Position numbers and translations under genes: made by a program. The notes under the pieces were generated by a model, which ran no database searches, was not told where the DNA came from, and saw nothing but the letters and a program-made list of their open reading frames with translations. Below are positions 1,504 to 14,998 of a stretch of DNA of 22,381 nt, in pieces. Numbering within the stretch: position 1 is the first letter of the stretch; each line of letters begins with the position of its first letter. The stretch is from a virus (taxonomy: Duplodnaviria; Heunggongvirae; Uroviricota; Caudoviricetes), in IMG/VR virus record IMGVR_UViG_2585427768_000008, positions 1 through 22,381 of that record. The stretch is one strand, 5' to 3'.

Positions 1504-2228
1504 TCACTATTACCAAAGAGCGACTACTGACAATCAAGCAGTGCCGCGAAACATACGGACCTGGTAGCAACGTTGTACTGCCAGCAGAAGAAGCGGAAGA
1601 ACTGGCACGGATTGCACTGGCATCGCTGGAAGCAGATCCAGTTAAACGAGTTAACTCAGATCAGATGCGCCGAGTCTGCTTAGAAGCTAATCGCCATTTA
1701 GATAAATATGACGCGATGGCGAAAGAGGTAAATAAGTTGCTTGGACGCATCGCCCCGCCAGCGCCGGTAGTGCCGGAAGAAGCAACTCCGGAAAACGTAG
1801 AAATGCTCTCTGGCTATGTTTCCACGTACAAATTAACCGATAGCGAGCGCGATATTGCTGCCGAAATATGGAACGCCTGCCGCGCCGCCATGCTTCAGTC
1901 CGGAAACTTTCGGGAAAATAAAGATTCGTCAACCAATAATTTTCGGAAAATCCCGGAAGCGTCAACCAACCATCCGGTAACTCCGGATGGTTGGATAAGC
2001 TGTAGTGATCGAATGCCAGAAATGGGAGAGCGACAATACTATGTGTTAGCAGCTGACTTTAAAAACAACTACCCACCAAGCATCCCCAACACTCAGGTCG
2101 GCGTATATGGCGACTGGTTTAATGATGGCAATCCCACTTGGGATGACGGTGATGGCGAAGACCTGCATCTCAAAGAAGTAACCCACTGGATGCCGCTACC
2201 AGAACCGCCGAAGGAGGTACGCCAATGA
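1500..2228 (+). CDS. DUF551-type prophage protein
   Basis: 242-aa ORF; C-terminal W/D-rich segment ending ...THWMPLPEPP matches my recollection of the DUF551 signature found in enterobacterial prophage early regions. Confidence 0.65.
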   Translation: MITITKERLLTIKQCRETYGPGSNVVLPAEEAEELARIALASLEADPVKRVNSDQMRRVCLEANRHLDKYDAMAKEVNKLLGRIAPPAPVVPEEATPENVEMLSGYVSTYKLTDSERDIAAEIWNACRAAMLQSGNFRENKDSSTNNFRKIPEASTNHPVTPDGWISCSDRMPEMGERQYYVLAADFKNNYPPSIPNTQVGVYGDWFNDGNPTWDDGDGEDLHLKEVTHWMPLPEPPKEVRQ

Positions 2229-2630: not shown

Positions 2631-5600
2631 TTAATCCACTCCCACTTTTTTGTTGTACTCGCGGTTAAACCGATCCACGGCAACCTTCATATCCCGCTCT
2701 ACCGATTTCACCATCGCCGCCTGCTGCGCCAGACTGAGAGAACTGTCGGCATAAATGGCATCGCGCTGTTTGCGCAAATCCTTCAGTCTCTTCCGGGTAT
2801 CCTGCATAAGCCCGTTCATCAACAATTTTCCGTTGTTCTCGTCAATGAACGCCGTTCTTTCTGCACCGGTCAGACTCTTCAGCTCTGCGTGATACTGCGC
2901 AACCTCTGTCATCCGGTCGTACATCTTCTGCTGGTCTGCATACGGCATCACCTCACCCGAAATTTTCCCCAGGAAGGGCACCTGCTGTTCCGGTATATCA
3001 ATACCATTCAGCGATTTCACCGCCGCATCCGTGGTTTTGGAAATGAAGCGCCCTGTCCCTCCGGAGATATAGTCAATCCAGAATTTCAGCGATTCCGGTG
3101 TGATATCCACCGCGCCGGGACGATACTGGCTGCCACCTGAGAACGCATTCAGCCAGAATGCAAACGCCTTGTACGCTTCTGGCGTTGAACGTCTTCCCAG
3201 CTGGCTGTCAGGTTTTGGTGTACCAAACGGCATGTTCTCCTGGTAAATCTGCGCCCCCATGAAGTTTTCGTTCATGGCAAGATTCGCAAACGGACGCAGA
3301 ATTGTCGGTGCTGCATTTTTCAGCAATGCCCCCGACAACGTTTCCGACGTCTCGCTGCCGATCGGGCTGAATGCCCCCAGGATACCGCCGACAACATTAC
3401 CGGCAGCACGTGAAGCAGTCAGGTCGCCCGCTGCCACACCTTCAGCTGTATGACCAAGCAGGAAGAACACGTTGTACCCGTAAGGCAGAGGAATACTCCA
3501 GTACTCACCGGCCTTGCCCCCGAACATCGATTTCATGATGACGAGGTTACGCTCTTTCACATGAGACGGTACTTTGTCGTACCAGTTACCCCCGTCATCA
3601 TCCTCCCCCGCCACACTGCGGTTAAGCGAGCCAAGCAGATAACCCGCTCCCACAGCTGCAAGCACGATTTTCTGCGGTACATTGAGATTCTTCCAGCGAA
3701 GGCGCTCCAGTAACGGCCCGTCGCCATTAAGATGTCCGAGCGTTCTCACCAGGTTTGCGGTCCCCTGAATGCTGGCGTTGGCAAACATGTACAGCGAGTT
3801 CATCAGCATCCCCTGCTCACCACGACGGTTAAAGTTCACCGTCATGTTTTTGGCAAGAGACGCCGCCTGCTGGCGTGACAAACCGGCATCACGGGCGTGT
3901 TTATAGGCAGAAAGACGCAGAGCGTTTTCAACCGCGCCGTTGGCATCCTCGACCAGGTTCAGGAACGAATGCCATGCACCGATACTCTGGCCTTTCCATC
4001 CGCCCTTCGCCAGCGACACAAGGCGATCCATTTCCTTCTGCTGGCCCTCAAGGTCACCCATGTTAAACCAGCCGGTTTTACCTCCGTCCTCAACAAACTC
4101 TTTCCACACTTTCTGCCACTGTGCGCCTTTGCCCGTGAGGGTTTTACCCCGCAGACTTGCGTATACGGCTGACATGGCGGAACGGCTGTCTTTCACCACA
4201 GCCAGCGCGGATAAGTTATCCAGCTCTTTCAGTTTACCGTCGCTCCTTCCCTGCTCAGCCTTCAGGTTCATCACCGCAGTCTGCACGTCACGGATGAAGT
4301 TACTGACCAGAAATTCCGGGTTATACGACGTGTTCACCGTTGCCAGGAAGCGGTTAACTTTCCCCAGCGTACGGATTACGGCGTTACTGGTTTCCGGCCC
4401 CATGTTCTTCATCGCACGCATCAGGCGCGGATCATGAAGTTTAATGTAGTAAGTTTTGCCGTCCTTTTTGGTGGTGAAGTAGCGATCCGCCATCATTGCC
4501 ATCGGCACAGGGCGCTCGACAACTTCGCGAATGGTTTCACCAGTTTCCTGGTCCTTGCGCTCTGCAATCACACGCATTGTATCCGGTCTGTCATCAGTGA
4601 ATCCCTGCCAGTAATCCTTGTCGGGATTATCCTGTACCAGTTTCAGGAAGGCGTTACCCACTTCATTTTTGCGATTGCGGATCAGCGATTCACTCAAATC
4701 CTGTATCGCCTGAGTGGAAGGAGACTGTGCGCGGGATGCACGCCCCATGGCCTGCTTACTTTCACGCCCGCCGATGGTGAATCCCTTGCCTGTACGTGGC
4801 TGTGACACCACACCGTCAACATCCTGCCCTTTCAGGGGGACGTAGTAACGGTAGGCTTTCTGCCAGGCATCCACCACGCCGCTCTCTTCCAGTCCTGCCT
4901 CACGGATAATCTCACGGCGACGGGCCAGCATATCGTCAATAATCCCTGCCAGACGGTCATACTGTGCCTGTTTGCCGCTGTTACGCACACGCTGCATGAT
5001 TTCCGCCGCTTCCGCGTTGGTCATCCCCGAACCGCCGTCCGGCATTTTCGGGTTGATTTTCGCAATATGCACGTTACGTTCCGGCGCGTGACGGGCGTAG
5101 AGGTACTCATCCAGATCGGCCTGCGCAATTTTGTAGTCCGCCAGCAATTTGGCCAGCGGCTGAACGTAGCGCTCCTTCATTACGTTCAGGTCGTTTTCCG
5201 CCTTCCCGTGGAAGAGTTCTTCAGCCATATAGGCGTTATTGCTGTCATCTATTTTTCCGCCAGTTTTACGGATATTCTCCTGCACCGCCTTCAGCACCTG
5301 GAATTTATCCTGCATCTGGCGAACAAAACGGGATGCAATTGTCTCTTCCGGCGTCAGACTGCTGGTGCGGGAGTAATACGGCCCCTTGCGAATATCTTCA
5401 GGATAGAGTATTTTATCAACAGAGCCGCGATAAGAATGTTCCCCTTTGGGCAATTGGAGCCCTCTGTGCAGAAGGTTATCGCGGCTTAATTTTTCTCTCC
5501 GGTACAACGTTAAACCGGTCATTTCCATACTCTTCAGTTTTTTCCCGTTTTCCGTACCGTAAACAGATGCCACCTTGTTGATTTCCAGGCGCGACCGGAC

Positions 5601-8600
5601 AGCCTTCATGTGTACCGCTGACACCACCGGATCACCATTTTTATCCACGGCATCAAGCAGCATCACAACCGCGTTTCTTTCTGTCGCGGAACGGTAAATT
5701 GCATCCGGATCGTGCATCAGTTCCGGTAGTCTCTCGATAACATCCATCGGCACCACATGTTTCACACCATTGGTGGCCTTACGCACAGTGTCGCGGGAGA
5801 TAACCAGCGGCAAATCTGGTGCGCCAAGGTGACGCAATACCGGCGGCGTACGCCCGATGTTTACCGTTAAATCCGTTGAGCGCAGAGACTTCATCATTCT
5901 GGCAAGGTCATCACGATAACGCTCGCCCTCACCTTCCGGCACTTTGAACGGATCAGGCTTACCGCTACGGGAGTACTGAGACGATGCGTCCGCGCCATCC
6001 TCACGCGGCGTGTAACCTTCCCGCACACGCTGGCCTAACGTGCGAATAGTTTCGCGAACAAGTCTGATATCGTTCAGTTCCGTCGGCTTCAGTAACCCCG
6101 TACGACGCAGTACCCCTTTGACCAGGGCAACAACACGCTCCCATGCCGCCACGAATTTAATCGGCTGCTTCTCTGCCATATGCGCCAGAAATTCACCCGC
6201 CTGCACTTCCGGTGATTCCTTACCATAAGACGCATCAACCTTACGCCAGGCTTCACGGATGGTGGCGTTATCACTGTCACGGGTTTTCAGCACGGTCTTA
6301 ATAATCGTCTGATATTCCGCTGGCGTGACTACATGCTCCATTGCATGGTGAATAATCTCGTGACGTAACTTCTCGCGAACGGTCCGCCCGTCAGGGATGT
6401 TATCCGCCACCAGGACAATTTCACGTTTATCCGGACGATAGAACGCGTGCACCTTGCCGTAACCGTCGAATGATTCCCCCGCCAGTGCTTCAGCCTCTTT
6501 CTGTGACTTCACCACGCGGACCTTCAGGTCACTGTCCTTAATGCCACTAATCACGCCACGGGCAACAGCTTCAACCTGCGGGACCGGACTGCCTTTGGCT
6601 TCCGCACTACGGTTAACATCCGAAATCAGATTGCCTTCAGGTGTGCGGGTCACGCCCTTACGGGAATAAAACGCAACTCCCTTGTCCGTCTCACGGGTTT
6701 TCAGTGTTCGGAACAAGTGATCGAATGCCTCACGAATACCGCCATCCAGTTCTGCATTCGTCGGATAAGCGTAGGTGTCCGGCTGTCCATGGTCATCCGC
6801 CTTACGGATATTGACCAGATAATCATTCTCCACGCCAGCCATACGCGCTTTATCCTGAACATAACGCTCAAAGGCTCGCGCCGCCATTTCAACATCCGTT
6901 GACCAGTACGGTTTTGAACGAACGCCATCCAGGCGTTCAGAACGACGCAACATGTCACTGCTGTTAATGGCTTTCATCACGCCTTTAAACGCGTCGTAAA
7001 CCTCCTGACGTACCGGATATTCCGCATCAACATACCTGCCGTCTTTAAATACGCGCCCGGCACGCTGTGCTTCCGTCATATAGTCGCCACCTGACGTGAT
7101 CTTCCCGTCAGTGGAAACATCATAACGACCAAAATAATTATCCAGTGAATGGAACCATTCGTGGGCCAGCGCCCCCGGTCCGTTACCTTTTGTCAGGTTG
7201 ATTGCCACCTCACCCGGCTCATAGTGTGCCGCCGCCTTACCCTTACCACGGGCACCAAAAGCAAGCCCAAGACGACCGTTCAGAGAAAGCGCTTTTGTCG
7301 GCACGTTCAGCACGTCAGCCAGGTCATGCAGCGAGTCATAAGCCCGGTTCAAATCAGCCTGACGACGCGGACTTTCCACATAATTACCAAACTGCACACC
7401 ACGAAAACCAAACGCATCACTGAACTGCTCCGGCGAAACATCCCCCTTGCGGCGTTCTGGTCCGGTACGATCGCGGTTGGTGGCGTTACGCTGCTCCTCA
7501 CGCGAGACTTCACGCAGCGCCTTCACCTGATTAACCAGCTCATCACGATGTGTGCGCACATAATCATGTGCATCACGGGCAGACTCAAAACCGCCCTTCA
7601 GTTTCTGCCTGTTTTTGCCATAACCGATAAAAATGTCGCCACTGGCCTTATGCCGGTACACGTCAAAGGTTATTCTGTCATCAGCAGAGGTTGCTGGCGT
7701 TTCCCTTTCTCTGGAGCCTTGTTCATCGAAATATGCTTTCGCCTTTTTCAGTAACTCATCCCGGCTTTCCGAGAAAAAGAGGTCGCGCCCCTTGCTATCA
7801 CGAAGCGAATACATCATTTGCGGCGGATCGTAACGTTTTCCCCCGACAAACGAATAAACACCGGACCTGACACGATAGCCGGATGCTTTATCAATCTGCA
7901 ATGCAGAAAGCGTACGGAGCAGTTTCCAGGTATCCGACATGCTCCGTAACCCCGGCTTACTGTCCATCATATCAGCCAGTTTCGCTGCCGGAATTTTCCC
8001 CTCCAGCATACCGGCAGTAGCTTCGCGACCGCTTTTAACAATGCTGATCCATTTCTGCATGTTACGGCTTGTTCTGGTGGGAATTTCACTGCGATACAAC
8101 GCCATCATTGCCAGCGTGTCACTATCCACACCTTCTTTTTCCAGACGGGCATAATCCGGCTTTGGAAACAGTTTGCTCAGTGGTTGTGTCGCGTACTCCC
8201 CATCCTCCAGCGTTTTACCCATAGCTTCAGCAAGCTGCGCATAACGGTGTTTTGCCGCGCCCTTAATCTCCTCGCCAAAGTCTTCAATTTTCGCACCACG
8301 CGCCTGCTGGTGAGTGCTCGGTTTATCTACCGGCACCGGCACCTCAGTATCCGGAACATCGGTTATGGTCTGGCGATTATCCCCGGTCTGTCTGCGTGCT
8401 TCTGCCTGCTGTGCCAGTTCCGGAAGGGAGTCACGAACCATACGAGGGAGTGATTCAGGCTGTGGCATATCAACCCCACGCTGACTTTCAGGTGCAGGAA
8501 GACCTTCACGCACTGGTGCTGTGGCGTTCTGCTCATCCGGTGACGGCAGACCACGACGAACTGTTTCGCCCTCCAGTATTTCCCCCTGGCGACCAGCGGC

Positions 8601-10484
8601 ATTTTCCGGTGCCTGCGCACGTCCTTTCTGGAAACTCTGGCCCTTCACCTCACCGGTTGTGGTAAAACGACCACCACGTCCGGCCTGATTTTCATCCGGC
8701 GTACGCGCTACTTCTCCTGGTAACGGATATCCCTGTCCGGGATGAATATCGCCGGGAGCGGGAAGGCGTGGACGCTCAGTTAACTCCTGTGCTGTCGGAC
8801 CGGCATCACCTTCAGCCATCTGGGAACGCACCAGTTCTTCCGCCGTCGGCGCGTTGCCACGAGCAAGACGGGCCTGCACTTCTGTATCATCCCCCGTAAA
8901 ACCACGGAATCGCGGGTCACGCATGAACGCGGGCTGTTCCATCGGATCAGCATCAGTAATACGCTCTCCGTCAGCCAGAGTGTTAATGGTCTCCGTTGCC
9001 ACATCTTCAGAGAACGCAGGATTATCCATTTCAACGGCATACTGATTCTCGCCTTTCTTCACTACGGACGGTTTCAGGCCGGTGGCGCTGGCATTGCGGA
9101 AAACGTCGCTCCCCAGAGCACTTTTTTCATCCGTGAAATAACGGTTGTCCGGACGCACCTTTTCAATGCGTTCTGCTGGTCTGGACGCACCACTCTCGTT
9201 AATTTCAATACGAACTTCATCCGGATCGCGGAACCGCACCGTCGGGTAAATACTCCCGTCGCCATCATCCGCATTTTCCGGCTGTGGCTGTGCCTCCGGT
9301 CTGGCCTCCCGCTGAGGGCGAAGCACATCACGTATTGCCTGTAACTGCTGCTCTTCAGTATCAGTACGCCCTTCCTTCTGGCTGAGTTTTCGGTATTCCT
9401 CAAGCAGTTCAGGGCGCGGCTTCGCCTTCAGCTCATCCATCACCGCCTGTCGCTTCGCCTGTTCATCCAGTTCATTCAACAGCTGGCTGGCGGCTTCCCG
9501 GCGATGAACGGCAGACGTGTCTCCCTCATGTGCCATATCCGCATCAGCATACTGTTCCAGAAGCTGCTCGCGATTCATCCCCTGCATAGATTCACGATGC
9601 TGTGCCACCGGATCAACCGGTTCGGGTTGCGGAGCCGATTCGTCCTGAGGAACGCTTTCAGCCTCACGCATGGCTGCTTCATCTGCCGCCTGACGTTTTC
9701 CACGATATCCGGCAGCCGCACCGAATGGTGCCCCCATTGCAGCACCAAGGGCTGCACCTTCGATCGTTGCGTCAGCCACGCCCTCCCACGGTGACACATC
9801 CATTCCGGCGGTCTCACGCAATGCCGTGTTTTCCTGATAGCGTGAATAGCCACCCTGCGCCGCATTAATCGTCCCCTGTTCCGTGGCATTTCTGACAATG
9901 CCGCTTTTAACGGTCTTCGCCGTGCCCCGCATCGCCAGATTAAGCAACTGAGCATCGCCCAGTTTTGCCGCCATGGCATTCACAGCCAGCAATTCAGGAT
10001 CGGTTGCCAGCTGCGCACGCACCTCATCGGCAACACGCTCTTTTGCCAGGTCCATTTTCTGGCGGTCAGTAAGCTGCGCGTGCTGCGGATCTGCATCAAT
10101 TGACAAAAAGGTCTGCTGAAATTTCGGTGACTTCGCCAGCTCAGAATAATCCGCGTTAAGAACAGCATCTGCCGCTGCCATTGCACTCCGCCCTTGCGCA
10201 CTGACAGTGGAATGGGTGATCAGGCCTGCCTGGAAAAAATCCGGCATTTTTTTATCGACAGCTTCGGCTGCCAGTGCTGTGGCTCTTTCCGGCTGCATCC
10301 CTGCCGCGATGTATTTTTTCTCCAGCCCGGCGGTCAGCACTTTTCGCAGAGTGACATCACCCAGCTTTTTAGTCACACCGCCTGCAACCATATCCGGTAC
10401 AAGCGCACCAATCAGGTTAACTCCACAAGCCTTCGCAACTTCAGGGATGCCGACACCTTTAATCGGCTCATCAAGATTTTGCAT
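2631..10484 (-). CDS. giant multidomain protein (about 2617 aa) with zincin-like HExxH motifs; function unknown, possibly polyvalent-protein-like
   Basis: Uninterrupted 7.9-kb ORF on the minus strand. Preferred start is ATG at 10484 (AAGGA 7 nt upstream); the track start at 10517 has no RBS. HEWFH encoded at 7149-7163 and RHEIIHHAMEH at about 6334-6363. No Walker A or methyltransferase motifs seen. GC content visibly higher than the neighbouring AT-rich operon. Confidence 0.9.
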   Translation of the reverse strand: MQNLDEPIKGVGIPEVAKACGVNLIGALVPDMVAGGVTKKLGDVTLRKVLTAGLEKKYIAAGMQPERATALAAEAVDKKMPDFFQAGLITHSTVSAQGRSAMAAADAVLNADYSELAKSPKFQQTFLSIDADPQHAQLTDRQKMDLAKERVADEVRAQLATDPELLAVNAMAAKLGDAQLLNLAMRGTAKTVKSGIVRNATEQGTINAAQGGYSRYQENTALRETAGMDVSPWEGVADATIEGAALGAAMGAPFGAAAGYRGKRQAADEAAMREAESVPQDESAPQPEPVDPVAQHRESMQGMNREQLLEQYADADMAHEGDTSAVHRREAASQLLNELDEQAKRQAVMDELKAKPRPELLEEYRKLSQKEGRTDTEEQQLQAIRDVLRPQREARPEAQPQPENADDGDGSIYPTVRFRDPDEVRIEINESGASRPAERIEKVRPDNRYFTDEKSALGSDVFRNASATGLKPSVVKKGENQYAVEMDNPAFSEDVATETINTLADGERITDADPMEQPAFMRDPRFRGFTGDDTEVQARLARGNAPTAEELVRSQMAEGDAGPTAQELTERPRLPAPGDIHPGQGYPLPGEVARTPDENQAGRGGRFTTTGEVKGQSFQKGRAQAPENAAGRQGEILEGETVRRGLPSPDEQNATAPVREGLPAPESQRGVDMPQPESLPRMVRDSLPELAQQAEARRQTGDNRQTITDVPDTEVPVPVDKPSTHQQARGAKIEDFGEEIKGAAKHRYAQLAEAMGKTLEDGEYATQPLSKLFPKPDYARLEKEGVDSDTLAMMALYRSEIPTRTSRNMQKWISIVKSGREATAGMLEGKIPAAKLADMMDSKPGLRSMSDTWKLLRTLSALQIDKASGYRVRSGVYSFVGGKRYDPPQMMYSLRDSKGRDLFFSESRDELLKKAKAYFDEQGSRERETPATSADDRITFDVYRHKASGDIFIGYGKNRQKLKGGFESARDAHDYVRTHRDELVNQVKALREVSREEQRNATNRDRTGPERRKGDVSPEQFSDAFGFRGVQFGNYVESPRRQADLNRAYDSLHDLADVLNVPTKALSLNGRLGLAFGARGKGKAAAHYEPGEVAINLTKGNGPGALAHEWFHSLDNYFGRYDVSTDGKITSGGDYMTEAQRAGRVFKDGRYVDAEYPVRQEVYDAFKGVMKAINSSDMLRRSERLDGVRSKPYWSTDVEMAARAFERYVQDKARMAGVENDYLVNIRKADDHGQPDTYAYPTNAELDGGIREAFDHLFRTLKTRETDKGVAFYSRKGVTRTPEGNLISDVNRSAEAKGSPVPQVEAVARGVISGIKDSDLKVRVVKSQKEAEALAGESFDGYGKVHAFYRPDKREIVLVADNIPDGRTVREKLRHEIIHHAMEHVVTPAEYQTIIKTVLKTRDSDNATIREAWRKVDASYGKESPEVQAGEFLAHMAEKQPIKFVAAWERVVALVKGVLRRTGLLKPTELNDIRLVRETIRTLGQRVREGYTPREDGADASSQYSRSGKPDPFKVPEGEGERYRDDLARMMKSLRSTDLTVNIGRTPPVLRHLGAPDLPLVISRDTVRKATNGVKHVVPMDVIERLPELMHDPDAIYRSATERNAVVMLLDAVDKNGDPVVSAVHMKAVRSRLEINKVASVYGTENGKKLKSMEMTGLTLYRREKLSRDNLLHRGLQLPKGEHSYRGSVDKILYPEDIRKGPYYSRTSSLTPEETIASRFVRQMQDKFQVLKAVQENIRKTGGKIDDSNNAYMAEELFHGKAENDLNVMKERYVQPLAKLLADYKIAQADLDEYLYARHAPERNVHIAKINPKMPDGGSGMTNAEAAEIMQRVRNSGKQAQYDRLAGIIDDMLARRREIIREAGLEESGVVDAWQKAYRYYVPLKGQDVDGVVSQPRTGKGFTIGGRESKQAMGRASRAQSPSTQAIQDLSESLIRNRKNEVGNAFLKLVQDNPDKDYWQGFTDDRPDTMRVIAERKDQETGETIREVVERPVPMAMMADRYFTTKKDGKTYYIKLHDPRLMRAMKNMGPETSNAVIRTLGKVNRFLATVNTSYNPEFLVSNFIRDVQTAVMNLKAEQGRSDGKLKELDNLSALAVVKDSRSAMSAVYASLRGKTLTGKGAQWQKVWKEFVEDGGKTGWFNMGDLEGQQKEMDRLVSLAKGGWKGQSIGAWHSFLNLVEDANGAVENALRLSAYKHARDAGLSRQQAASLAKNMTVNFNRRGEQGMLMNSLYMFANASIQGTANLVRTLGHLNGDGPLLERLRWKNLNVPQKIVLAAVGAGYLLGSLNRSVAGEDDDGGNWYDKVPSHVKERNLVIMKSMFGGKAGEYWSIPLPYGYNVFFLLGHTAEGVAAGDLTASRAAGNVVGGILGAFSPIGSETSETLSGALLKNAAPTILRPFANLAMNENFMGAQIYQENMPFGTPKPDSQLGRRSTPEAYKAFAFWLNAFSGGSQYRPGAVDITPESLKFWIDYISGGTGRFISKTTDAAVKSLNGIDIPEQQVPFLGKISGEVMPYADQQKMYDRMTEVAQYHAELKSLTGAERTAFIDENNGKLLMNGLMQDTRKRLKDLRKQRDAIYADSSLSLAQQAAMVKSVERDMKVAVDRFNREYNKKVGVD

Positions 10485-10562
10485 AGGGATATCCTTTTTC
10501 GTACTTTCAGTACGCATTATGATTGAACTGAAAGTTTTTGCAAGTGCTTTAGTATCGTACTC
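10485..10562. promoter_or_regulatory. divergent promoter/operator switch region between giant gene and cI-like repressor
   Basis: Minus-strand promoter TTGCAA (10538-10543), 16-nt spacer, CATAAT (complement of 10516-10521). Perfect 15-bp palindrome CGTACTTTCAGTACG (10500-10514) just downstream of the -10; inverted partial copy ACTGAAAGT (10527-10535). A third CGTAC-N5-GTTCA element (10556-10570) overlaps the cI start. cI has no Shine-Dalgarno; TAGTAT (10550-10555) lies 7 nt before its ATG, suggesting a leaderless transcript as for lambda pRM. Confidence 0.5.
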
Positions 10563-11270
10563 ATGGTTCAGAATGAAAAAGTGCGCAAAGAATTCGCCCA
10601 GCGGCTAGCGCAAGCCTGTAAAGAAGCTGGTCTTGATGAACATGGTAGGGGAATGGCTATAGCCCGTGCCCTTTCTCTTTCGTCCAAAGGCGTTAGCAAA
10701 TGGTTTAATGCTGAGTCTTTACCGCGTCAGGAAAAAATGAATGCGCTTGCGAAATTTCTAAACGTTGATGTTGTTTGGCTTCAGCACGGCACTTCGTTAA
10801 ATGGAGCGAATGATGAAGATACTCTTTCATTTGTTGGCAAATTAAAAAAAGGGTTAGTGCGCGTGGTTGGTGAGGCAATTCTTGGTGTTGATGGTGCCAT
10901 CGAGATGACCGAAGAGCGCGATGGGTGGCTCAAAATTTATAGCGATGATCCAGATGCCTTTGGCCTTCGTGTGAAAGGAGACAGCATGTGGCCCAGAATA
11001 AAATCAGGAGAATATGTACTCATTGAGCCTAACACCAAAGTATTCCCGGGTGATGAGGTGTTTGTCAGAACCGTTGAAGGACACAACATGATTAAGGTTC
11101 TTGGCTATGACAGAGATGGAGAATACCAATTTACAAGCATTAACCAGGATCACAGGCCTATAACGTTGCCTTATCATCAAGTAGCAAAGGTGGAGTATGT
11201 AGCTGGTATTCTGAAGCAATCTCGCCATCTGGATGACATCGAGGCAAGGGAGTGGCTGAAAAGTTCGTGA
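10563..11270 (+). CDS. cI: CI-like prophage repressor (N-terminal HTH, C-terminal S24 LexA-like peptidase)
   Basis: 235-aa ORF. N-terminal HTH-like segment (GMAIARALSLSSKGVSKWFN) and C-terminal GDSMWP serine motif with a downstream conserved lysine (MIKVLG), as in LexA/CI autocleaving repressors. Position and orientation match cI relative to the pL operon. Confidence 0.88.
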   Translation: MVQNEKVRKEFAQRLAQACKEAGLDEHGRGMAIARALSLSSKGVSKWFNAESLPRQEKMNALAKFLNVDVVWLQHGTSLNGANDEDTLSFVGKLKKGLVRVVGEAILGVDGAIEMTEERDGWLKIYSDDPDAFGLRVKGDSMWPRIKSGEYVLIEPNTKVFPGDEVFVRTVEGHNMIKVLGYDRDGEYQFTSINQDHRPITLPYHQVAKVEYVAGILKQSRHLDDIEAREWLKSS

Positions 11271-11330: not shown

Positions 11331-11672
11331 ATGGCGTTCACTGACCTTGAATATCAAGCGGTCAAAAAAGAAGTTCACCAATTCATTGAAAGCATAAGGC
11401 CGCCTGAACATATCCGCAATGAACTGGATATTGTTTATAGCATCAATGACCAAACGATAGATATCGGCGAACAGCGCCCCGTGTGGCAGGGCAACCCAGG
11501 TGAAACAAACATCCTGCCATCAGCAAGAATCAAGTACATACGTTCTCTGGATAGATGGAAAATCTATTGGATGCGGAAGGATATGAAATGGCATCAGTAC
11601 AGTACTGAACTTTCGCTGACTGATGCGCTTGAGCTTGTGCGTGCTGACCCGGATTGCTGCTTCTTCGGATGA
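11331..11672 (+). CDS. hypothetical protein, first gene downstream of cI
   Basis: 113-aa ORF with strong RBS GAGGAGG before the ATG; same strand as cI and no terminator between them. No recognisable motifs. Confidence 0.6.
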   Translation: MAFTDLEYQAVKKEVHQFIESIRPPEHIRNELDIVYSINDQTIDIGEQRPVWQGNPGETNILPSARIKYIRSLDRWKIYWMRKDMKWHQYSTELSLTDALELVRADPDCCFFG

Positions 11673-11739
11673 GTGAAGAGACGTTTGGATGATGGATGGT
11701 CGCAGAGATGCGGCCTGATTCTAAAATAGGATATAAAAA

Positions 11740-12201
11740 ATGAGAATACTAGGTGTTAGAGCGGCGCCCAAAGTTACATCTTTTGTTGTATATTGCACTA
11801 ATGAGTCTGCACTCAAATGTGTTGATGTTATTAAAATACCTTCGACCTTAGACACACCAGAAAAATTAAAGTATGTGAGAAATAACATCCTCGACATTCT
11901 TAATTTATATAATGTTGAATTAGCTGCCATACGCGTTACTGAATCAAACTCTGATAATCTTAGCATTGACCGCCTTTATATAGAAGCTGTTATTCAAGAA
12001 GCATTTTCAAGCAGTGATGTAAGAAAATATTACACTATTAGAAAATCTGGCATGAAATCATCATTGAACCTAACAGAGATCGAGTATAAAGAAATATTGA
12101 AGTCACACCGCAATATAAATGGAATCGATAATTCTGGTTTTACAACTGAAACAAATGAAGCTGTTTTGGCTGCTCTATCTGCGGAGGTAAGGGGATGCTA
12201 A
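11740..12201 (+). CDS. hypothetical protein, upstream partner of Ser/Thr kinase
   Basis: 153-aa ORF in a markedly AT-rich segment; AGGA upstream of the ATG; 3' end overlaps the kinase start by 7 nt. No recognisable motifs. Confidence 0.6.
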   Translation: MRILGVRAAPKVTSFVVYCTNESALKCVDVIKIPSTLDTPEKLKYVRNNILDILNLYNVELAAIRVTESNSDNLSIDRLYIEAVIQEAFSSSDVRKYYTIRKSGMKSSLNLTEIEYKEILKSHRNINGIDNSGFTTETNEAVLAALSAEVRGC

Positions 12202-13241
12202 CTCCATACAAAAGAGCTGATGTAGAATTCGAATGGATTAGTGATCTAGAAGAACAGGGTTGTTTTTCAAAAGTATATCTGGCTCATGACAGACACCTAG
12301 CTCATGACTTGGTGATTAAAGAAATAGAAAAAAAAGAAAACACTAACCACGACGACTACTTTAATGAAGCAAGGCTTCTCTATAAACATGCACATCCAAA
12401 TATTGTGCAAGTTCAGTATGCTGCTCAATGTGAGAGCAATATCTATATAGCCATGCCATTTTATCATAATGGTTCGCTAAACCAATTAATGAAAAAAAAT
12501 AATCTTACAAGCAGGGAGATAATACGGTATTCCATTCAATTTTTAAGTGGACTTTATCATATACACTCAAAAGGTCTTATGCATTTTGATATAAAACCTA
12601 ATAACATTATGATATCAAACAGAAATGAGGCCATGCTATCTGACTTTGGATTATCTCAGTTAGTCAATGAGGAATCGAGAGCTGCGCCTGAGTTTGGATA
12701 TCATTTTCATGTGCCACCGGAATATTTTTCTTTATCAACAAATGATTATAATTTCACATATGACATATATCAGGCAGGATTAACCATATATAGAATGTGT
12801 GTTGGACATGATAATTTTGAAAGAGAAAGATCTGCATTTAGCACGATTGAACAACTCAGAGAGTCGATAATTAATGGCTGCTATCCATTAAAAGAGTATC
12901 CTCCCCATATACATAAAAAATTAATAACAATAGTGAACAAATGCATTCATGTAGATCCAAATGAAAGATATCAATCCGTACTAGATGTACTAAACGATCT
13001 CTCAGCTATAAGTGATGGCGTTCTTGACTGGCGTCTACAGATGACGAAACCAACTAACGGCACATGCGAATGGCAAAAAAAGTCTGGGGACGCTATACTG
13101 TCTATAGTTTTTGACGCAGAAAATTCGTCTACTACTGGTTTTCGTTTATACGATGATGGGCGGAAAAGGCGTGCTACGAACTTAACAATATCCTCAGGAT
13201 GTACCCCTACAAAACTGTATAGGTTATTAAAGGATAACTGA
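12195..13241 (+). CDS. eukaryotic-like (Hanks-type) Ser/Thr protein kinase
   Basis: 348-aa ORF with GGAGG 7 nt upstream. Kinase subdomain motifs in order: glycine-rich-like loop EQGCFSKVY, VIK lysine, catalytic loop HFDIKPNN (about 12583-12606), DFG (12642-12650), PPE (APE-like), DIYQAG. AT-rich. Confidence 0.85.
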   Translation: MLTPYKRADVEFEWISDLEEQGCFSKVYLAHDRHLAHDLVIKEIEKKENTNHDDYFNEARLLYKHAHPNIVQVQYAAQCESNIYIAMPFYHNGSLNQLMKKNNLTSREIIRYSIQFLSGLYHIHSKGLMHFDIKPNNIMISNRNEAMLSDFGLSQLVNEESRAAPEFGYHFHVPPEYFSLSTNDYNFTYDIYQAGLTIYRMCVGHDNFERERSAFSTIEQLRESIINGCYPLKEYPPHIHKKLITIVNKCIHVDPNERYQSVLDVLNDLSAISDGVLDWRLQMTKPTNGTCEWQKKSGDAILSIVFDAENSSTTGFRLYDDGRKRRATNLTISSGCTPTKLYRLLKDN

Positions 13242-13243
13242 TC

Positions 13244-13408
13244 ATGAAAAAGCGCGAGGAAGTAAGCAAGCTGCCTCGCAGACGTGATGCAGCATTAGCG
13301 GTTCCCTACAAAAAAGATGAGTTCATAAGCCCTTCTGATGACAAAAAATTTTCAAAGGCGAAAAGTTTTACATCTACATCTCTAAAAGATAAATACTTTA
13401 AAATCTAG
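13244..13408 (+). CDS. small basic protein (54 aa), translationally coupled to kinase
   Basis: ATG at 13244, 2 nt after the kinase stop, with AAGGA upstream; stop TAG 13406-13408 directly precedes the terminator. Not in the supplied ORF track (below its length cutoff); read by hand. Confidence 0.35.
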   Translation: MKKREEVSKLPRRRDAALAVPYKKDEFISPSDDKKFSKAKSFTSTSLKDKYFKI

Positions 13409-13434
13409 CCCGGCCTCAGCGCCGGGTTTTCTTT
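13409..13434 (+). terminator. rho-independent terminator ending the cI/kinase operon (tIMM-like)
   Basis: CCCGGC (13409-13414), 6-nt loop, GCCGGG (13421-13426), followed by TTTTCTTT. Confidence 0.7.
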
Positions 13435-13605
13435 GCCTCACGATCCCCCACCTAAAAAAACATAACTCATTGTATTTATTGATGTAACTCGCTAAACCAT
13501 GCAGTTCTGATCCCTGCCGCATAACCTTCATCAGCCACATTTTCAAAAATAAATTTCCTTATATATCAGAATCATACTTCGTAGAGTTAATAAATCACCA
13601 AAATT

Positions 13606-13650
13606 CGTACCAATAGTTCTTGATAATGTCGAACTATTGGTTCACTATTA
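13606..13650 (+). promoter_or_regulatory. candidate pL-like promoter with inverted-repeat operator
   Basis: 11-bp inverted repeat ACCAATAGTTC (13609-13619) / GAACTATTGGT (13631-13641) with 11-bp spacer containing TTGATA (13620-13625, -35-like); weak -10-like CACTAT at 13643-13648. CGTAC-N5-GTTCT at 13606-13620 resembles elements in the cI switch region. Confidence 0.4.
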
Positions 13651-13717
13651 TCGTCATCAGCAGGACGCATTACTCACCAGGGCGGTGAATATACAACGAT
13701 TCGAATATGAATCTACG

Positions 13718-13732
13718 GCGCTGACAAAGCGC
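13718..13732 (+). promoter_or_regulatory. nutL-like boxB RNA hairpin (P22 type)
   Basis: GCGCT GACAA AGCGC: 5-bp stem with GACAA pentaloop, the boxB form I recall for phage P22. Lies between the pL-like promoter and the N-like gene. No convincing boxA found upstream. Confidence 0.6.
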
Positions 13733-13742
13733 AATAACCAAA

Positions 13743-13885
13743 GTGAACTTTGGGGTGTGGTGAAGGGTTCATGGACGGGAATATGTCGCACGTAAAGCGG
13801 CGAGGCCTGTGGGACTATTGCCGAATTGAAGTAGGCCGAAACAGGTCGAAATGGGTCTCCCACCTACCACACCACCAAAGTTCAT
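13743..13885 (+). other. long-range helix in the N-like gene leader (possible RNase III-type processing or translational control structure)
   Basis: TGAACTTTGG (13744-13753) and GTGTGGT (13755-13761) pair with ACCACAC (13867-13873) and CCAAAGTTCA (13876-13885), about 17 bp with one bulge, enclosing about 105 nt. The helix ends 1 nt before the AGGAGG Shine-Dalgarno (13887-13892). Confidence 0.4.
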
Positions 13886-13897
13886 CAGGAGGTCTAT

Positions 13898-14998
13898 ATG
13901 ACACGCAGAACTCAGTTCAAAGGCAATTCACGTTCTCGTCGTCGTGAGCGTTTAAAGGCAAAGGCATTAGCTAACTGCGTACTGGCCCGCGAAGAAGCAA
14001 TAAGTTCAGAAGTATTACACCGCCCTACTCTAAGCAGAGCGCAGATTCAGGCTAAAGGTACTCACGAAACGCCTGAGCGCATAGAAGACGCTAAGCCAAT
14101 TAAGTTCATGGCACAGGACGTGATCTGGCAACAGAAAGAATACAGACGCAATCTGGAGCGAGCAGCCATTGTGTACGCGAATGAGTTTGGACATAAGCAA
14201 CCAGAAACTGGTGTATGTCTTCCAAACGTAGCCATTTACGCGGCAGGCTACCGGAAATCAAAACAACTGACGGCGAGGGGATTGATGACCACGCCTTCAG
14301 TTTTGCCGCAAAAGTTATGGCGTCCGCTTGCAGAGATTAAAAACTTCGTTGAAAAAATGCCTGATGGAGTTCGCCTTACGGAAGTTACTAAAAAAGTTAA
14401 GACATTTGCCGAACTGTCAGGAAAGGAGAGAAACCAGCTCATAGATTTTATCGATAAACGGGAAAGCATCATTGTATTTAAGGTCAGAAAAGAAGGTTCT
14501 GGTAACGGAGTAACCTTTTTCCGCCACAAAAAATATGGATATCCCAAACGGGAAGGAAACGTCACAATCACTAAGGACCTTCAATCAAAATTATGTACCA
14601 GATGCGGGCAGACAAAATCAGTCAATGATTTTTATTCAGATGCCAGCAAGCGTGACGGGAGAGCCATTTATTGCAAGAAGTGCGAATCTGCAATGAAACG
14701 CTCACGCAGAAAATGCAACAAATTAATTCTGCAACAACAGGAACCTGAAATGAATAACCTCAAAGCAGTTTCACCTTCACCAGAAATACTCAGAAAACAG
14801 GCTGAAGAATTGCTGAAAGCCGCCGAAATTGCGGAGAAAAAACGCCAGGAAGATGATGCATTCAACAAAAAACTTGCGCCCTTAAAACTTGAAATCCTTC
14901 AGGCCGCCGGAAAAATGCAGCTTAAACTGGACGAATTCATCGACTGTATGGATGAAATGAATAAAGCAGTTCAGAAGCTTAAAGAGCTGACCGCCTGA
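13898..14998 (+). CDS. N-like transcription antiterminator with arginine-rich N-terminus, extended by a CxxC...CxxC zinc-ribbon and coiled-coil C-terminal region
   Basis: 366-aa ORF, AGGAGG 5 nt upstream. N-terminus KGNSRSRRRERLKAKALAN resembles the arginine-rich motif of the P22 N protein (recalled as GNAKTRRHERRRKLAIER) and pairs with the P22-type boxB upstream. CTRCGQ...CKKCES motif near residue 250. Much longer than typical N proteins. Confidence 0.6.
   Translation: MTRRTQFKGNSRSRRRERLKAKALANCVLAREEAISSEVLHRPTLSRAQIQAKGTHETPERIEDAKPIKFMAQDVIWQQKEYRRNLERAAIVYANEFGHKQPETGVCLPNVAIYAAGYRKSKQLTARGLMTTPSVLPQKLWRPLAEIKNFVEKMPDGVRLTEVTKKVKTFAELSGKERNQLIDFIDKRESIIVFKVRKEGSGNGVTFFRHKKYGYPKREGNVTITKDLQSKLCTRCGQTKSVNDFYSDASKRDGRAIYCKKCESAMKRSRRKCNKLILQQQEPEMNNLKAVSPSPEILRKQAEELLKAAEIAEKKRQEDDAFNKKLAPLKLEILQAAGKMQLKLDEFIDCMDEMNKAVQKLKELTA

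What the first reader, a model, noticed from the sequence alone, without database searches (positions are those of the whole stretch)
13606..13650. Perfect 11-bp inverted repeat overlapping a -35-like hexamer upstream of the N-like gene
ACCAATAGTTC / GAACTATTGGT (13609-13641) flank TTGATA. An operator overlapping a promoter about 250 nt upstream of the antiterminator gene is the expected pL/OL layout, but this inverted repeat differs in sequence from the palindrome in the cI switch region. Either the repressor recognises degenerate sites or a second regulator binds here.
Basis: seen in the sequence. Interest (0 to 1): 0.4.

Follow-up and report, generated by a model that had tools for sequence, protein, structure and literature searches.

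The report
Phage 933W left operators and pL
The "perfect inverted repeat" is two neighbouring binding sites (OL2 and OL1) for the phage 933W CI repressor that straddle the early leftward promoter pL, a well-studied control region of Shiga-toxin phages, so the finding is real but ordinary.

Summary
The 11-bp inverted repeat exists exactly as described (13609-13619 / 13631-13641, 11-nt spacer containing TTGATA). It is not a single new operator. Each arm is the core of a separate 15-bp, internally symmetric operator: OL2 CGTACCAATAGTTCT (13606-13620) and OL1 CGAACTATTGGTTCA (13630-13644). Both fit the half-site rule (C-G-A/T-A-C-T/C) also met by OR1-OR3 upstream of cI, with the same 24-bp centre spacing as OR1-OR2.

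The region is 98.6% identical to phage 933W. The 39-bp operator block is identical, and the window's CI protein is 100% identical to 933W CI. Published work characterised that repressor's five 15-bp sites, three in OR and two in OL.

TTGATA is the pL -35. This is supported by a 15-nt block identical to the lambda pL transcript start, which places +1 at A13656.

Across 65 related sequences the operator cores never vary. Changes in the arms are never compensated, so the two sites are conserved rather than the long palindrome.

Verdict: already known, low interest. Side observations: this copy has a private -10 change, a lost N stop codon and a cro-to-tail deletion.

The parts
13609..13619 (.). 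Left arm of the reported inverted repeat (ACCAATAGTTC). It lies inside OL2.
13631..13641 (.). Right arm of the reported inverted repeat (GAACTATTGGT). It lies inside OL1.
13606..13620 (.). Operator OL2, CGTACCAATAGTTCT, with half-sites CGTACCA and AGAACTA. Its last base is the first base of the -35 hexamer.
   Evidence: The core pattern matches exactly. The half-site table reproduces the published statistics (against PMC3317979). It is identical in 933W. Core positions are invariant in 65 relatives. The name OL2 follows the lambda convention (distal to N) and is my inference.
13630..13644 (.). Operator OL1, CGAACTATTGGTTCA, with half-sites CGAACTA and TGAACCA. It fills the -35/-10 spacer and overlaps the first two bases of the -10.
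13620..13625 (+). pL -35 hexamer, TTGATA (5 of 6 matches to TTGACA).
   Evidence: The promoter scan on 933W finds TTGATA-17-CATTAT. The position is consistent with the lambda-homologous transcript start.
13643..13648 (+). pL -10 hexamer, CACTAT here and CATTAT in 933W and nearly all relatives. The T-to-C change at 13645 is private to this window.
13654..13668 (+). Start of the pL transcript. CATCAGCAGGACGCA is identical to the lambda pL initiation region, which places the inferred +1 at A13656 (G in 933W). Different nutL/N modules diverge just after this block.
   Evidence: Alignment with lambda; module boundary seen. The lambda +1 coordinate (35582) is from my own knowledge.
13666..13732 (+). 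nutL, transferred from the 933W annotation (offset +8800). The boxB hairpin GCGCTGACAAAGCGC lies at 13718-13732.
13898..14998 (+). N antiterminator gene (N proper is 13898-14278). Its stop codon is changed from TGA to GGA at 14279-14281, which fuses N to the next ORF to give 366 aa.
   Evidence: Pfam N_peptide, residues 2-127
13407..13428 (+). tM, the intrinsic terminator that ends the cI (pRM) operon upstream of OL.
   Evidence: 933W annotation
10563..11270 (+). cI repressor gene, 235 aa, 100% identical to 933W CI. It has an HTH_3 and a Peptidase_S24 domain and carries the DNA-contact residues S41, K42 and K46.
   Evidence: PMC3317979
10500..10570 (.). OR region. OR1 is 10500-10514 (CGTACTTTCAGTACG), OR2 is 10524-10538 (TGAACTGAAAGTTTT) and OR3 is 10556-10570 (CGTACTCATGGTTCA).
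   Evidence: 933W annotation

Best explanation
The repeat is the left operator region (OL2 plus OL1) of a 933W-type (Traversvirus) lambdoid prophage, superimposed on the early leftward promoter pL. Dimers of the prophage CI repressor, encoded 2.3 kb upstream at 10563-11270, bind each 15-bp operator through helix-turn-helix contacts to positions 2-5 of each half-site. OL1 occupies the -35/-10 spacer and the start of the -10. OL2 abuts and overlaps the -35 hexamer TTGATA. Occupied operators therefore exclude RNA polymerase and keep N and the early-left operon (kil, gam, bet, exo, int and others) silent in the lysogen. After DNA damage, RecA-stimulated self-cleavage of CI (S24 peptidase domain) frees pL. 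Transcription then starts at about A13656, crosses nutL (boxB 13718-13732) and makes N. The 11-bp perfect inverted repeat is a by-product: OL1 is nearly an inverted copy of OL2. Shown here: sequence identity with 933W, the shared operator grammar, the promoter geometry, the homology of the transcript start, and the conservation pattern. Taken from the literature: CI binding to two OL sites. Inferred: repression by occlusion, and the exact +1.
For: (1) The window segment 13300-14000 is 98.6% identical to 933W. The 39 bp of OL2, spacer and OL1 are identical.
(2) CI is 235/235 identical to 933W CI.
(3) The five sites OR1-3, OL1 and OL2 give a half-site table with A at position 4 and C at position 5 in 10/10, G at position 2 in 9/10 (the exception is one OR2 half-site), and T at position 6 in 7/10 with C in 3/10. 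These are the figures stated in the text for the five natural 933W operators, described there as 15 bp and rotationally symmetric about a central base pair (PMC3317979).
(4) The OL1-OL2 centre spacing is 24 bp, the same as OR1-OR2.
(5) The strict core pattern matches exactly only at OR1, OR3, OL2 and OL1 in the whole window.
(6) The literature states that 933W and Phi24B have only two left operators, that CI binds them, and that pL is repressed (PMC3064807; PMC5977221; PMC10742460).
(7) 933W has TTGATA-17-CATTAT at this position. A 15-nt block identical to the lambda pL initiation region follows 5 nt downstream of the -10, giving +1 at A13656.
(8) In 65 related sequences (19 haplotypes) collected through an upstream anchor, positions 2-5 and 11-14 of both operators never vary. 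Eleven other positions in the 39 bp do vary (P = 8e-4).
Against: The primary papers that print the OL1 and OL2 sequences and any mapping of pL (Koudelka 2004, Tyler 2004, Bullwinkle 2011) were not readable here. The site assignment therefore rests on matching the published verbal description, not on the published figure. In this window the -10 is CACTAT, only 3 of 6 matches to consensus, and the simple promoter scan finds no promoter. An alternative -10 (GATAAT, 13622-13627) sits between the two operators in the same way that CATAAT sits between OR2 and OR1 at pR, but it lacks any -35. No binding or transcription experiment was done on this sequence.
Confidence: 0.93

Rival explanations
1. The repeat is a single operator with two 11-bp arms and an 11-bp spacer. 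It is recognised by a second regulator, distinct from CI, that controls N expression.
For: The arms are perfectly complementary and centred on the -35 region. The arm sequence does not recur elsewhere in the window.
Against: Each arm is itself a complete pseudo-palindromic 15-bp site that fits the 933W CI operator rule. In relatives the arms change at three paired positions with 9 broken cells, 1 G-U and no compensatory change, so arm-to-arm symmetry is not maintained. The literature accounts for the region with CI alone. No candidate second DNA-binding protein is evident between cI and N, where the genes are DUF3024, an unknown ORF, the Stk kinase and a 54-aa ORF.
Confidence: 0.02
2. The repeat acts as a nucleic-acid hairpin, either an RNA stem-loop in read-through transcripts from the cI operon (processing or termination signal) or a DNA cruciform.
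For: As RNA it folds to -13.9 kcal/mol with z = -3.9 against shuffles.
Against: It lies upstream of the inferred pL start and downstream of the strong terminator tM at 13407-13428, so it is probably seldom transcribed. No U-tract follows it. There is no compensatory covariation in 19 haplotypes. There is no Rfam match. The stability follows automatically from two inverted operators.
Confidence: 0.02
3. The operators are as described, but pL uses GATAAT (13622-13627) between OL2 and OL1 as its -10. That would mirror pR, where CATAAT lies between OR2 and OR1, and TTGATA would not be the -35.
For: GATAAT matches TATAAT at 5 of 6 positions. The O2 / -10 / O1 arrangement would copy the annotated pR geometry.
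Against: No acceptable -35 lies 16-18 bp upstream; the candidates are CCAAAA, CAAAAT and AAAATT. The 15-nt block identical to the lambda pL initiation site sits 7 nt after CA(T/C)TAT, not after GATAAT. The consensus scan of 933W picks TTGATA-17-CATTAT.
Confidence: 0.05

Closest known systems
OL1/OL2-pL of Shiga-toxin phage 933W (and the identical immunity region of Phi24B / vB_EcoP_24B)
   Same: The 39-bp OL2-spacer-OL1 block is identical in sequence and the CI protein is identical. The flanking genes are the same: cI, DUF3024, L0083, stk, L0081 and tM upstream, with nutL and N downstream. There are two left operators rather than three (PMC3064807, PMC5977221).
   Different: This copy has T-to-C at the third base of the -10 (13645) and A instead of G at the inferred +1 (13656). 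Its N gene has lost its stop codon. The cognate cro gene is truncated after codon 33 by a large deletion, so Cro cannot act on these operators here.
Bacteriophage lambda OL/pL
   Same: The logic and layout are the same. O1 lies in the -35/-10 spacer and overlaps the -10, and O2 overlaps the -35. The repressor is an HTH plus S24-peptidase protein encoded upstream. A nutL boxB hairpin and the N gene lie downstream. The 15-nt transcript initiation block CATCAGCAGGACGCA is identical.
   Different: Lambda operators are 17 bp with a different sequence (TATCACCGC-type). Lambda has three of them, spaced 24 and 20 bp apart. Lambda CI binds adjacent sites cooperatively, whereas 933W CI is reported not to do so at OR1/OR2 (PMC3317979). 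The N protein and nutL are of a different specificity type.
OR1-OR2-OR3 of the same prophage (10500-10570)
   Same: The 15-bp operator grammar is the same, as is the 24-bp O1-O2 spacing. O1 and O2 are again inverted copies of each other (9-bp inverted repeat at 10503-10511 / 10527-10535).
   Different: There are three sites instead of two. At pR the -10 lies between OR2 and OR1 and OR1 covers the start site (933W annotation). At pL the operators sit one step further upstream relative to the promoter hexamers.

Membership tests
933W-type CI operator | A 15-bp site, rotationally symmetric about a central base pair, with conserved positions 2-5 and 2'-5' (G, A/T, A, C) and T or C at position 6 | tested here: met
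   OL2 is CGTACCA-A-(AGAACTA rc) and OL1 is CGAACTA-T-(TGAACCA rc). The half-site counts over the five sites reproduce the numbers given in PMC3317979.
933W-type CI operator | The cognate repressor is encoded in the same immunity region | tested here: met
   CI at 10563-11270 is 235/235 identical to 933W CI, including S41, K42 and K46 (PMC3317979).
933W-type CI operator | Sequence-specific binding by CI (footprint or EMSA) | not testable with these tools
   Binding is published for the identical 933W and Phi24B sequence (PMC3317979; PMC3064807). It was not measured on this DNA.
933W-type CI operator | Only two sites in OL (no OL3) | tested here: met
   No further match to the core pattern with up to 1 mismatch lies between tM and OL2. 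Only a single half-site-like CATACTT occurs at 13573-13579. The literature agrees.
Lambdoid pL early-left control region | A sigma-70 promoter directed at the N gene and overlapped by the operators | tested here: inconclusive
   933W has TTGATA-17-CATTAT, 9 of 12 matches. This window has TTGATA-17-CACTAT, 8 of 12, which is below the scan threshold. Transcription was not measured.
Lambdoid pL early-left control region | The transcript start region is homologous to that of lambda pL | tested here: met
   CATCAGCAGGACGCA at 13654-13668 is identical to lambda.
Lambdoid pL early-left control region | A nutL site (boxB hairpin) and an N antiterminator gene lie downstream | tested here: met
   boxB GCGCTGACAAAGCGC lies at 13718-13732 within the stretch 933W annotates as nutL. 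Pfam N_peptide matches residues 2-127 of the ORF starting at 13898.
Lambdoid pL early-left control region | Three tandem operators (OL1-OL3), as in lambda | tested here: not met
   There are only two sites. This is the known 933W variant of the layout.

The most novel reading that the evidence does not exclude
The inverted orientation of O1 relative to O2 occurs at both OL (12/15 identical inverted against 10/15 direct) and OR (10/15 against 7/15). This might itself be functional. For example, it could fix the relative orientation of two asymmetrically bound CI (or Cro) dimers, which could relate to the reported lack of cooperative binding in 933W. Under that reading the 39-bp quasi-palindrome would be a unit rather than two independent sites. 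Separately, this copy combines a weakened pL -10, an N stop-loss and a cro-to-tail deletion. That combination might mark a prophage remnant retained as an immunity and defence island (cI plus stk) rather than simple decay.
Probability: 0.05. Interest if true: 0.3.

Novelty: already known. Interest (0 to 1): 0.07.

Why it matters
It matters little as a discovery. The OL/pL switch of 933W-type Shiga-toxin phages has been dissected biochemically since 2004. The useful outcome is a correct annotation of this window (OL2, OL1, pL hexamers, +1, nutL, OR1-3). A second outcome is a caution for sequence reading: a long perfect inverted repeat can be the sum of two shorter, individually symmetric operators. 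The private changes in this copy (pL -10, N stop codon, cro deletion) may matter to anyone asking whether this prophage remnant can still be induced or still confers 933W immunity.

Tried and rejected
1. I tried to read the primary papers with the printed OL sequences and promoter mapping (PMC524894, PMC524892, PMC3133280). None is held. Full-text searches for the operator sequences returned only unrelated primer matches.
2. I tested a hairpin or structured-RNA reading. The fold is stable, but there is no covariation, no Rfam family and no tRNA, so I rejected it.
3. I considered GATAAT between the operators as the -10, by analogy with pR. I rejected it because there is no -35 and because of the lambda-homologous start site.
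4. I looked for an OL3 and found none.
5. I looked for the window's private variants and its deletion junction elsewhere. There was no exact match in IMG/VR, in GTDB representative genomes, in complete E. coli genomes or in GenBank phages.
6. The exact 33-bp repeat is absent from GTDB species representatives. It is present in 40 IMG/VR contigs. A 58-bp stretch spanning the operators and the -10 (13598-13655) matches in 202 of 5,426 complete E. coli genomes.

Full report
**Observation.** The sequence at 13600-13650 reads AAAATTCGTACCAATAGTTCTTGATAATGTCGAACTATTGGTTCACTATTA. ACCAATAGTTC (13609-13619) and GAACTATTGGT (13631-13641) are exact reverse complements, separated by 11 nt that begin with TTGATA (13620-13625). 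The repeat cannot be extended. A perfect 11-bp inverted repeat with a 3-20 nt loop is only moderately unlikely in a window of this size: the mean was 0.09 per dinucleotide-preserving shuffle, and 7% of 300 shuffles had at least one.

**Identity of the region.** Window 13300-14000 is 98.6-98.7% identical to the tM-nutL-N segment of Shiga-toxin phages 933W, Stx2 phage 86, Phi24B, Min27 and many others. A pairwise alignment with 933W shows that everything from 13509 to 13644 is identical, including both arms and the spacer.

The 933W record annotates the following genes upstream: cI, L0084, L0083, stk, L0081 and the terminator tM. It annotates nutL and N downstream. The same genes are present in the window:
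- cI at 10563-11270
- a DUF3024 protein at 11331-11672
- an ORF without a Pfam match at 11740-12201
- a protein kinase (Stk) at 12195-13241
- a 54-aa ORF at 13244-13408
- the tM hairpin at 13407-13428
- an N_peptide protein starting at 13898

The window's CI is 235/235 identical to 933W CI.

**What the repeat is made of.** The 933W record annotates three 15-bp operators next to cI. In window coordinates they are:
- OR1, CGTACTTTCAGTACG (10500-10514)
- OR2, TGAACTGAAAGTTTT (10524-10538)
- OR3, CGTACTCATGGTTCA (10556-10570)

Read with that template, the finding resolves into two 15-bp sites:
- CGTACCAATAGTTCT (13606-13620)
- CGAACTATTGGTTCA (13630-13644)

Each site has its own dyad, G(T/A)AC-N5-GT(T/A)C. 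The strict core pattern GWACYNNNRGTWC matches exactly at only four places in 22.4 kb: OR1, OR3 and these two. OR2 is a one-mismatch match.

The ten half-sites give C5/T3/A2 at position 1, G 9/10 at position 2, A6/T4 at position 3, A 10/10 at position 4, C 10/10 at position 5, and T7/C3 at position 6. Bullwinkle et al. (PMC3317979) describe the five natural 933W repressor sites in words, as follows:
- The sites are 15 bp and symmetric about a central base pair.
- Position 1 is poorly conserved, with consensus C.
- The position 3 consensus is A, with T favoured.
- Positions 4 and 5 are completely conserved as A and C.
- Position 6 is T in 7 of 10 half-sites and C in the other three.

Every one of these statements is reproduced by the table, so I regard the two sites as the published OL2 and OL1. 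The names follow the lambda convention, with OL1 nearest N. This naming fits the paper's remark that OL2 carries non-consensus bases at 3' and 6' (half-site CGTACC). The centre-to-centre spacing is 24 bp, as for OR1-OR2.

Three open papers state that 933W and Phi24B have only two left operators, five sites in all, and no OL3. They also state that CI binds the left operator region and represses pL (PMC5977221; PMC10742460; PMC3064807).

**Why it looks like one long palindrome.** OL1 is nearly an inverted copy of OL2: 12/15 identical when inverted against 10/15 direct. The weakly constrained central bases (CAATA / TATTG) therefore also pair up. The same holds at OR, where OR1 and OR2 form a 9-bp inverted repeat (10503-10511 / 10527-10535). 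It is not true of the recognition core.

**Comparative test.** I collected relatives through a 22-nt anchor 37 nt upstream of OL2 (anchor 13547-13568), so that the operators themselves were not used for selection. This gave 65 sequences and 19 haplotypes over 13604-13650.

Positions 2-5 and 11-14 of both operators are invariant. Variation is confined to the following positions:
- position 6, the centre and position 6' of the operators (T/C, A/T and A/G changes, mostly bases the repressor tolerates according to PMC3317979)
- position 15 of OL1
- the spacer bases 13627-13629
- one -35 variant

The chance that none of 11 variable sites falls in the 16 core positions out of 39 is 8e-4.

Counting the 11 arm-arm pairs gives 8 that never vary and 3 that vary. 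Those 3 contribute 9 broken cells, 1 G-U and no compensatory change. So the two operator cores are what is conserved, not complementarity between the arms. This argues against both a single long operator for another protein and a functional hairpin. The RNA fold is stable (-13.9 kcal/mol, z = -3.9), but that follows trivially from the repeat. There is no Rfam match.

**Promoter.** In 933W the consensus scan finds TTGATA-17-CATTAT at the corresponding place. In the window the -10 is CACTAT and falls below the scan's threshold.

Independent support for this promoter comes from lambda. The 15 nt CATCAGCAGGACGCA at 13654-13668 are identical to the initiation region of lambda pL. In lambda the transcript starts at the A of ATCAGCAGG (coordinate 35582, from my own knowledge). 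By homology, +1 is A13656, 7 nt after the -10; it is G in 933W, also a purine. Different nutL/N modules in relatives diverge immediately after this block, which is where a recombination joint between immunity and N modules would be expected.

The resulting layout is lambda-like. OL1 fills the spacer and overlaps the first two bases of the -10, and OL2 overlaps the first base of the -35. An alternative -10, GATAAT at 13622-13627, would mimic the pR arrangement (OR2 / CATAAT / OR1). It has no -35 and does not fit the conserved start, so I give it about 5%.

**Mechanism.**
- Shown here: an identical repressor, identical operators, operators overlapping the promoter hexamers, and the conservation pattern.
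- From the literature: CI binds two OL sites with nanomolar affinity. It contacts positions 2-5 through S41, K42 and K46, residues present in the window's CI. It is reported not to bind adjacent OR sites cooperatively (PMC3317979).
- Inferred: bound CI occludes RNA polymerase at pL. RecA-stimulated self-cleavage through the S24 domain relieves repression. Transcripts then run through nutL (boxB 13718-13732) into N.
- By analogy with lambda, Cro would also bind these sites in an intact phage.

**Peculiarities of this copy (outside the finding).**
1. cro is truncated. Only its first 33 codons remain (10517 to 10419, minus strand). They are joined in frame to about codon 187 of the giant polyvalent protein gene (LPD5/LPD1/MuF_C/LPD38 domains; phage 86 orf35), giving the 2628-aa ORF at 2631-10517. 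This removes the whole cII-O-P-Q-stx-lysis-morphogenesis block. The junction is not found in any collection searched.
2. The N stop codon is changed from TGA to GGA (14279-14281). This fuses N to the next ORF; the two are separate genes in phage PhiR5_2. None of 84 E. coli genomes with this segment has the change, and IMG/VR has no exact match.
3. The pL -10 change at 13645 is absent from 202 complete E. coli genomes and from IMG/VR.

The remaining early-left genes (kil, exoVIII-like, gam, bet, exo, int) have intact reading frames that match those of PhiR5_2. These features suggest a defective prophage remnant, or conceivably an assembly artefact at the junction. Its immunity module, including OL, is intact.

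**Verdict.** The specific suggestions, a distinct operator type or a second regulator, are not supported. The element is the already characterised OL1/OL2-pL region of 933W-type Shiga-toxin phages. Novelty: already known. Interest: low.

Noticed in passing
window 2631-10517 (minus strand); junction at 10418/10419: The cro gene keeps only its first 33 codons. They are fused in frame to about codon 187 of the giant LPD5/LPD1/MuF_C/LPD38 polyvalent protein gene, giving a 2628-aa ORF under pR/OR control. The whole cII-O-P-Q-stx-lysis-head-tail block is missing. There is 1-2 nt of microhomology at the joint. The junction is absent from GenBank phages, 5,426 complete E. coli genomes, GTDB representatives and IMG/VR. 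It is either a real deletion in a prophage remnant or a misassembly.
   Followed up: partly
window 14279-14281: The stop codon of the N antiterminator gene is changed from TGA to GGA. N (127 aa) therefore reads on into the next 237-aa ORF, giving 366 aa. The change is not seen in 84 E. coli genomes or in IMG/VR. Whether the fusion protein still antiterminates is unknown.
   Followed up: partly
window 13645: A private T-to-C change at the third base of the pL -10 hexamer (CATTAT to CACTAT), one base outside OL1. It is unique among 65 related viral sequences and is absent from 202 E. coli genomes that carry this operator region. It probably weakens pL.
   Followed up: partly
window 10503-10511 / 10527-10535: OR1 and OR2 also form an inverted repeat (ACTTTCAGT / ACTGAAAGT, centres 24 bp apart). 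The O1/O2 pair is therefore arranged as inverted copies at both OR and OL. Two bases flanking the pR -10 (10515 and 10522) differ from 933W.
   Followed up: partly
window 13573-13587: CATACTT-C-GTAGAGT contains one half-site that resembles the operator half-site (CATACTT against CGTACTT). It lies 33 bp upstream of the OL2 centre, close to the 32-bp OR2-OR3 spacing. It may be a vestige of an OL3; the literature says 933W has no functional OL3.
   Followed up: no
window 11331-13408: A block of lysogen-expressed accessory genes lies between cI and tM: a DUF3024 protein, a 153-aa ORF with no Pfam match, the eukaryotic-like protein kinase Stk, and a 54-aa ORF. The arrangement is the same as in 933W.
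   Followed up: partly
window 1966-1994: A second perfect inverted repeat of 12 bp (CCAACCATCCGG, 5-nt loop) lies inside the DUF551-protein ORF (1500-2228). Its significance is unknown.
   Followed up: no
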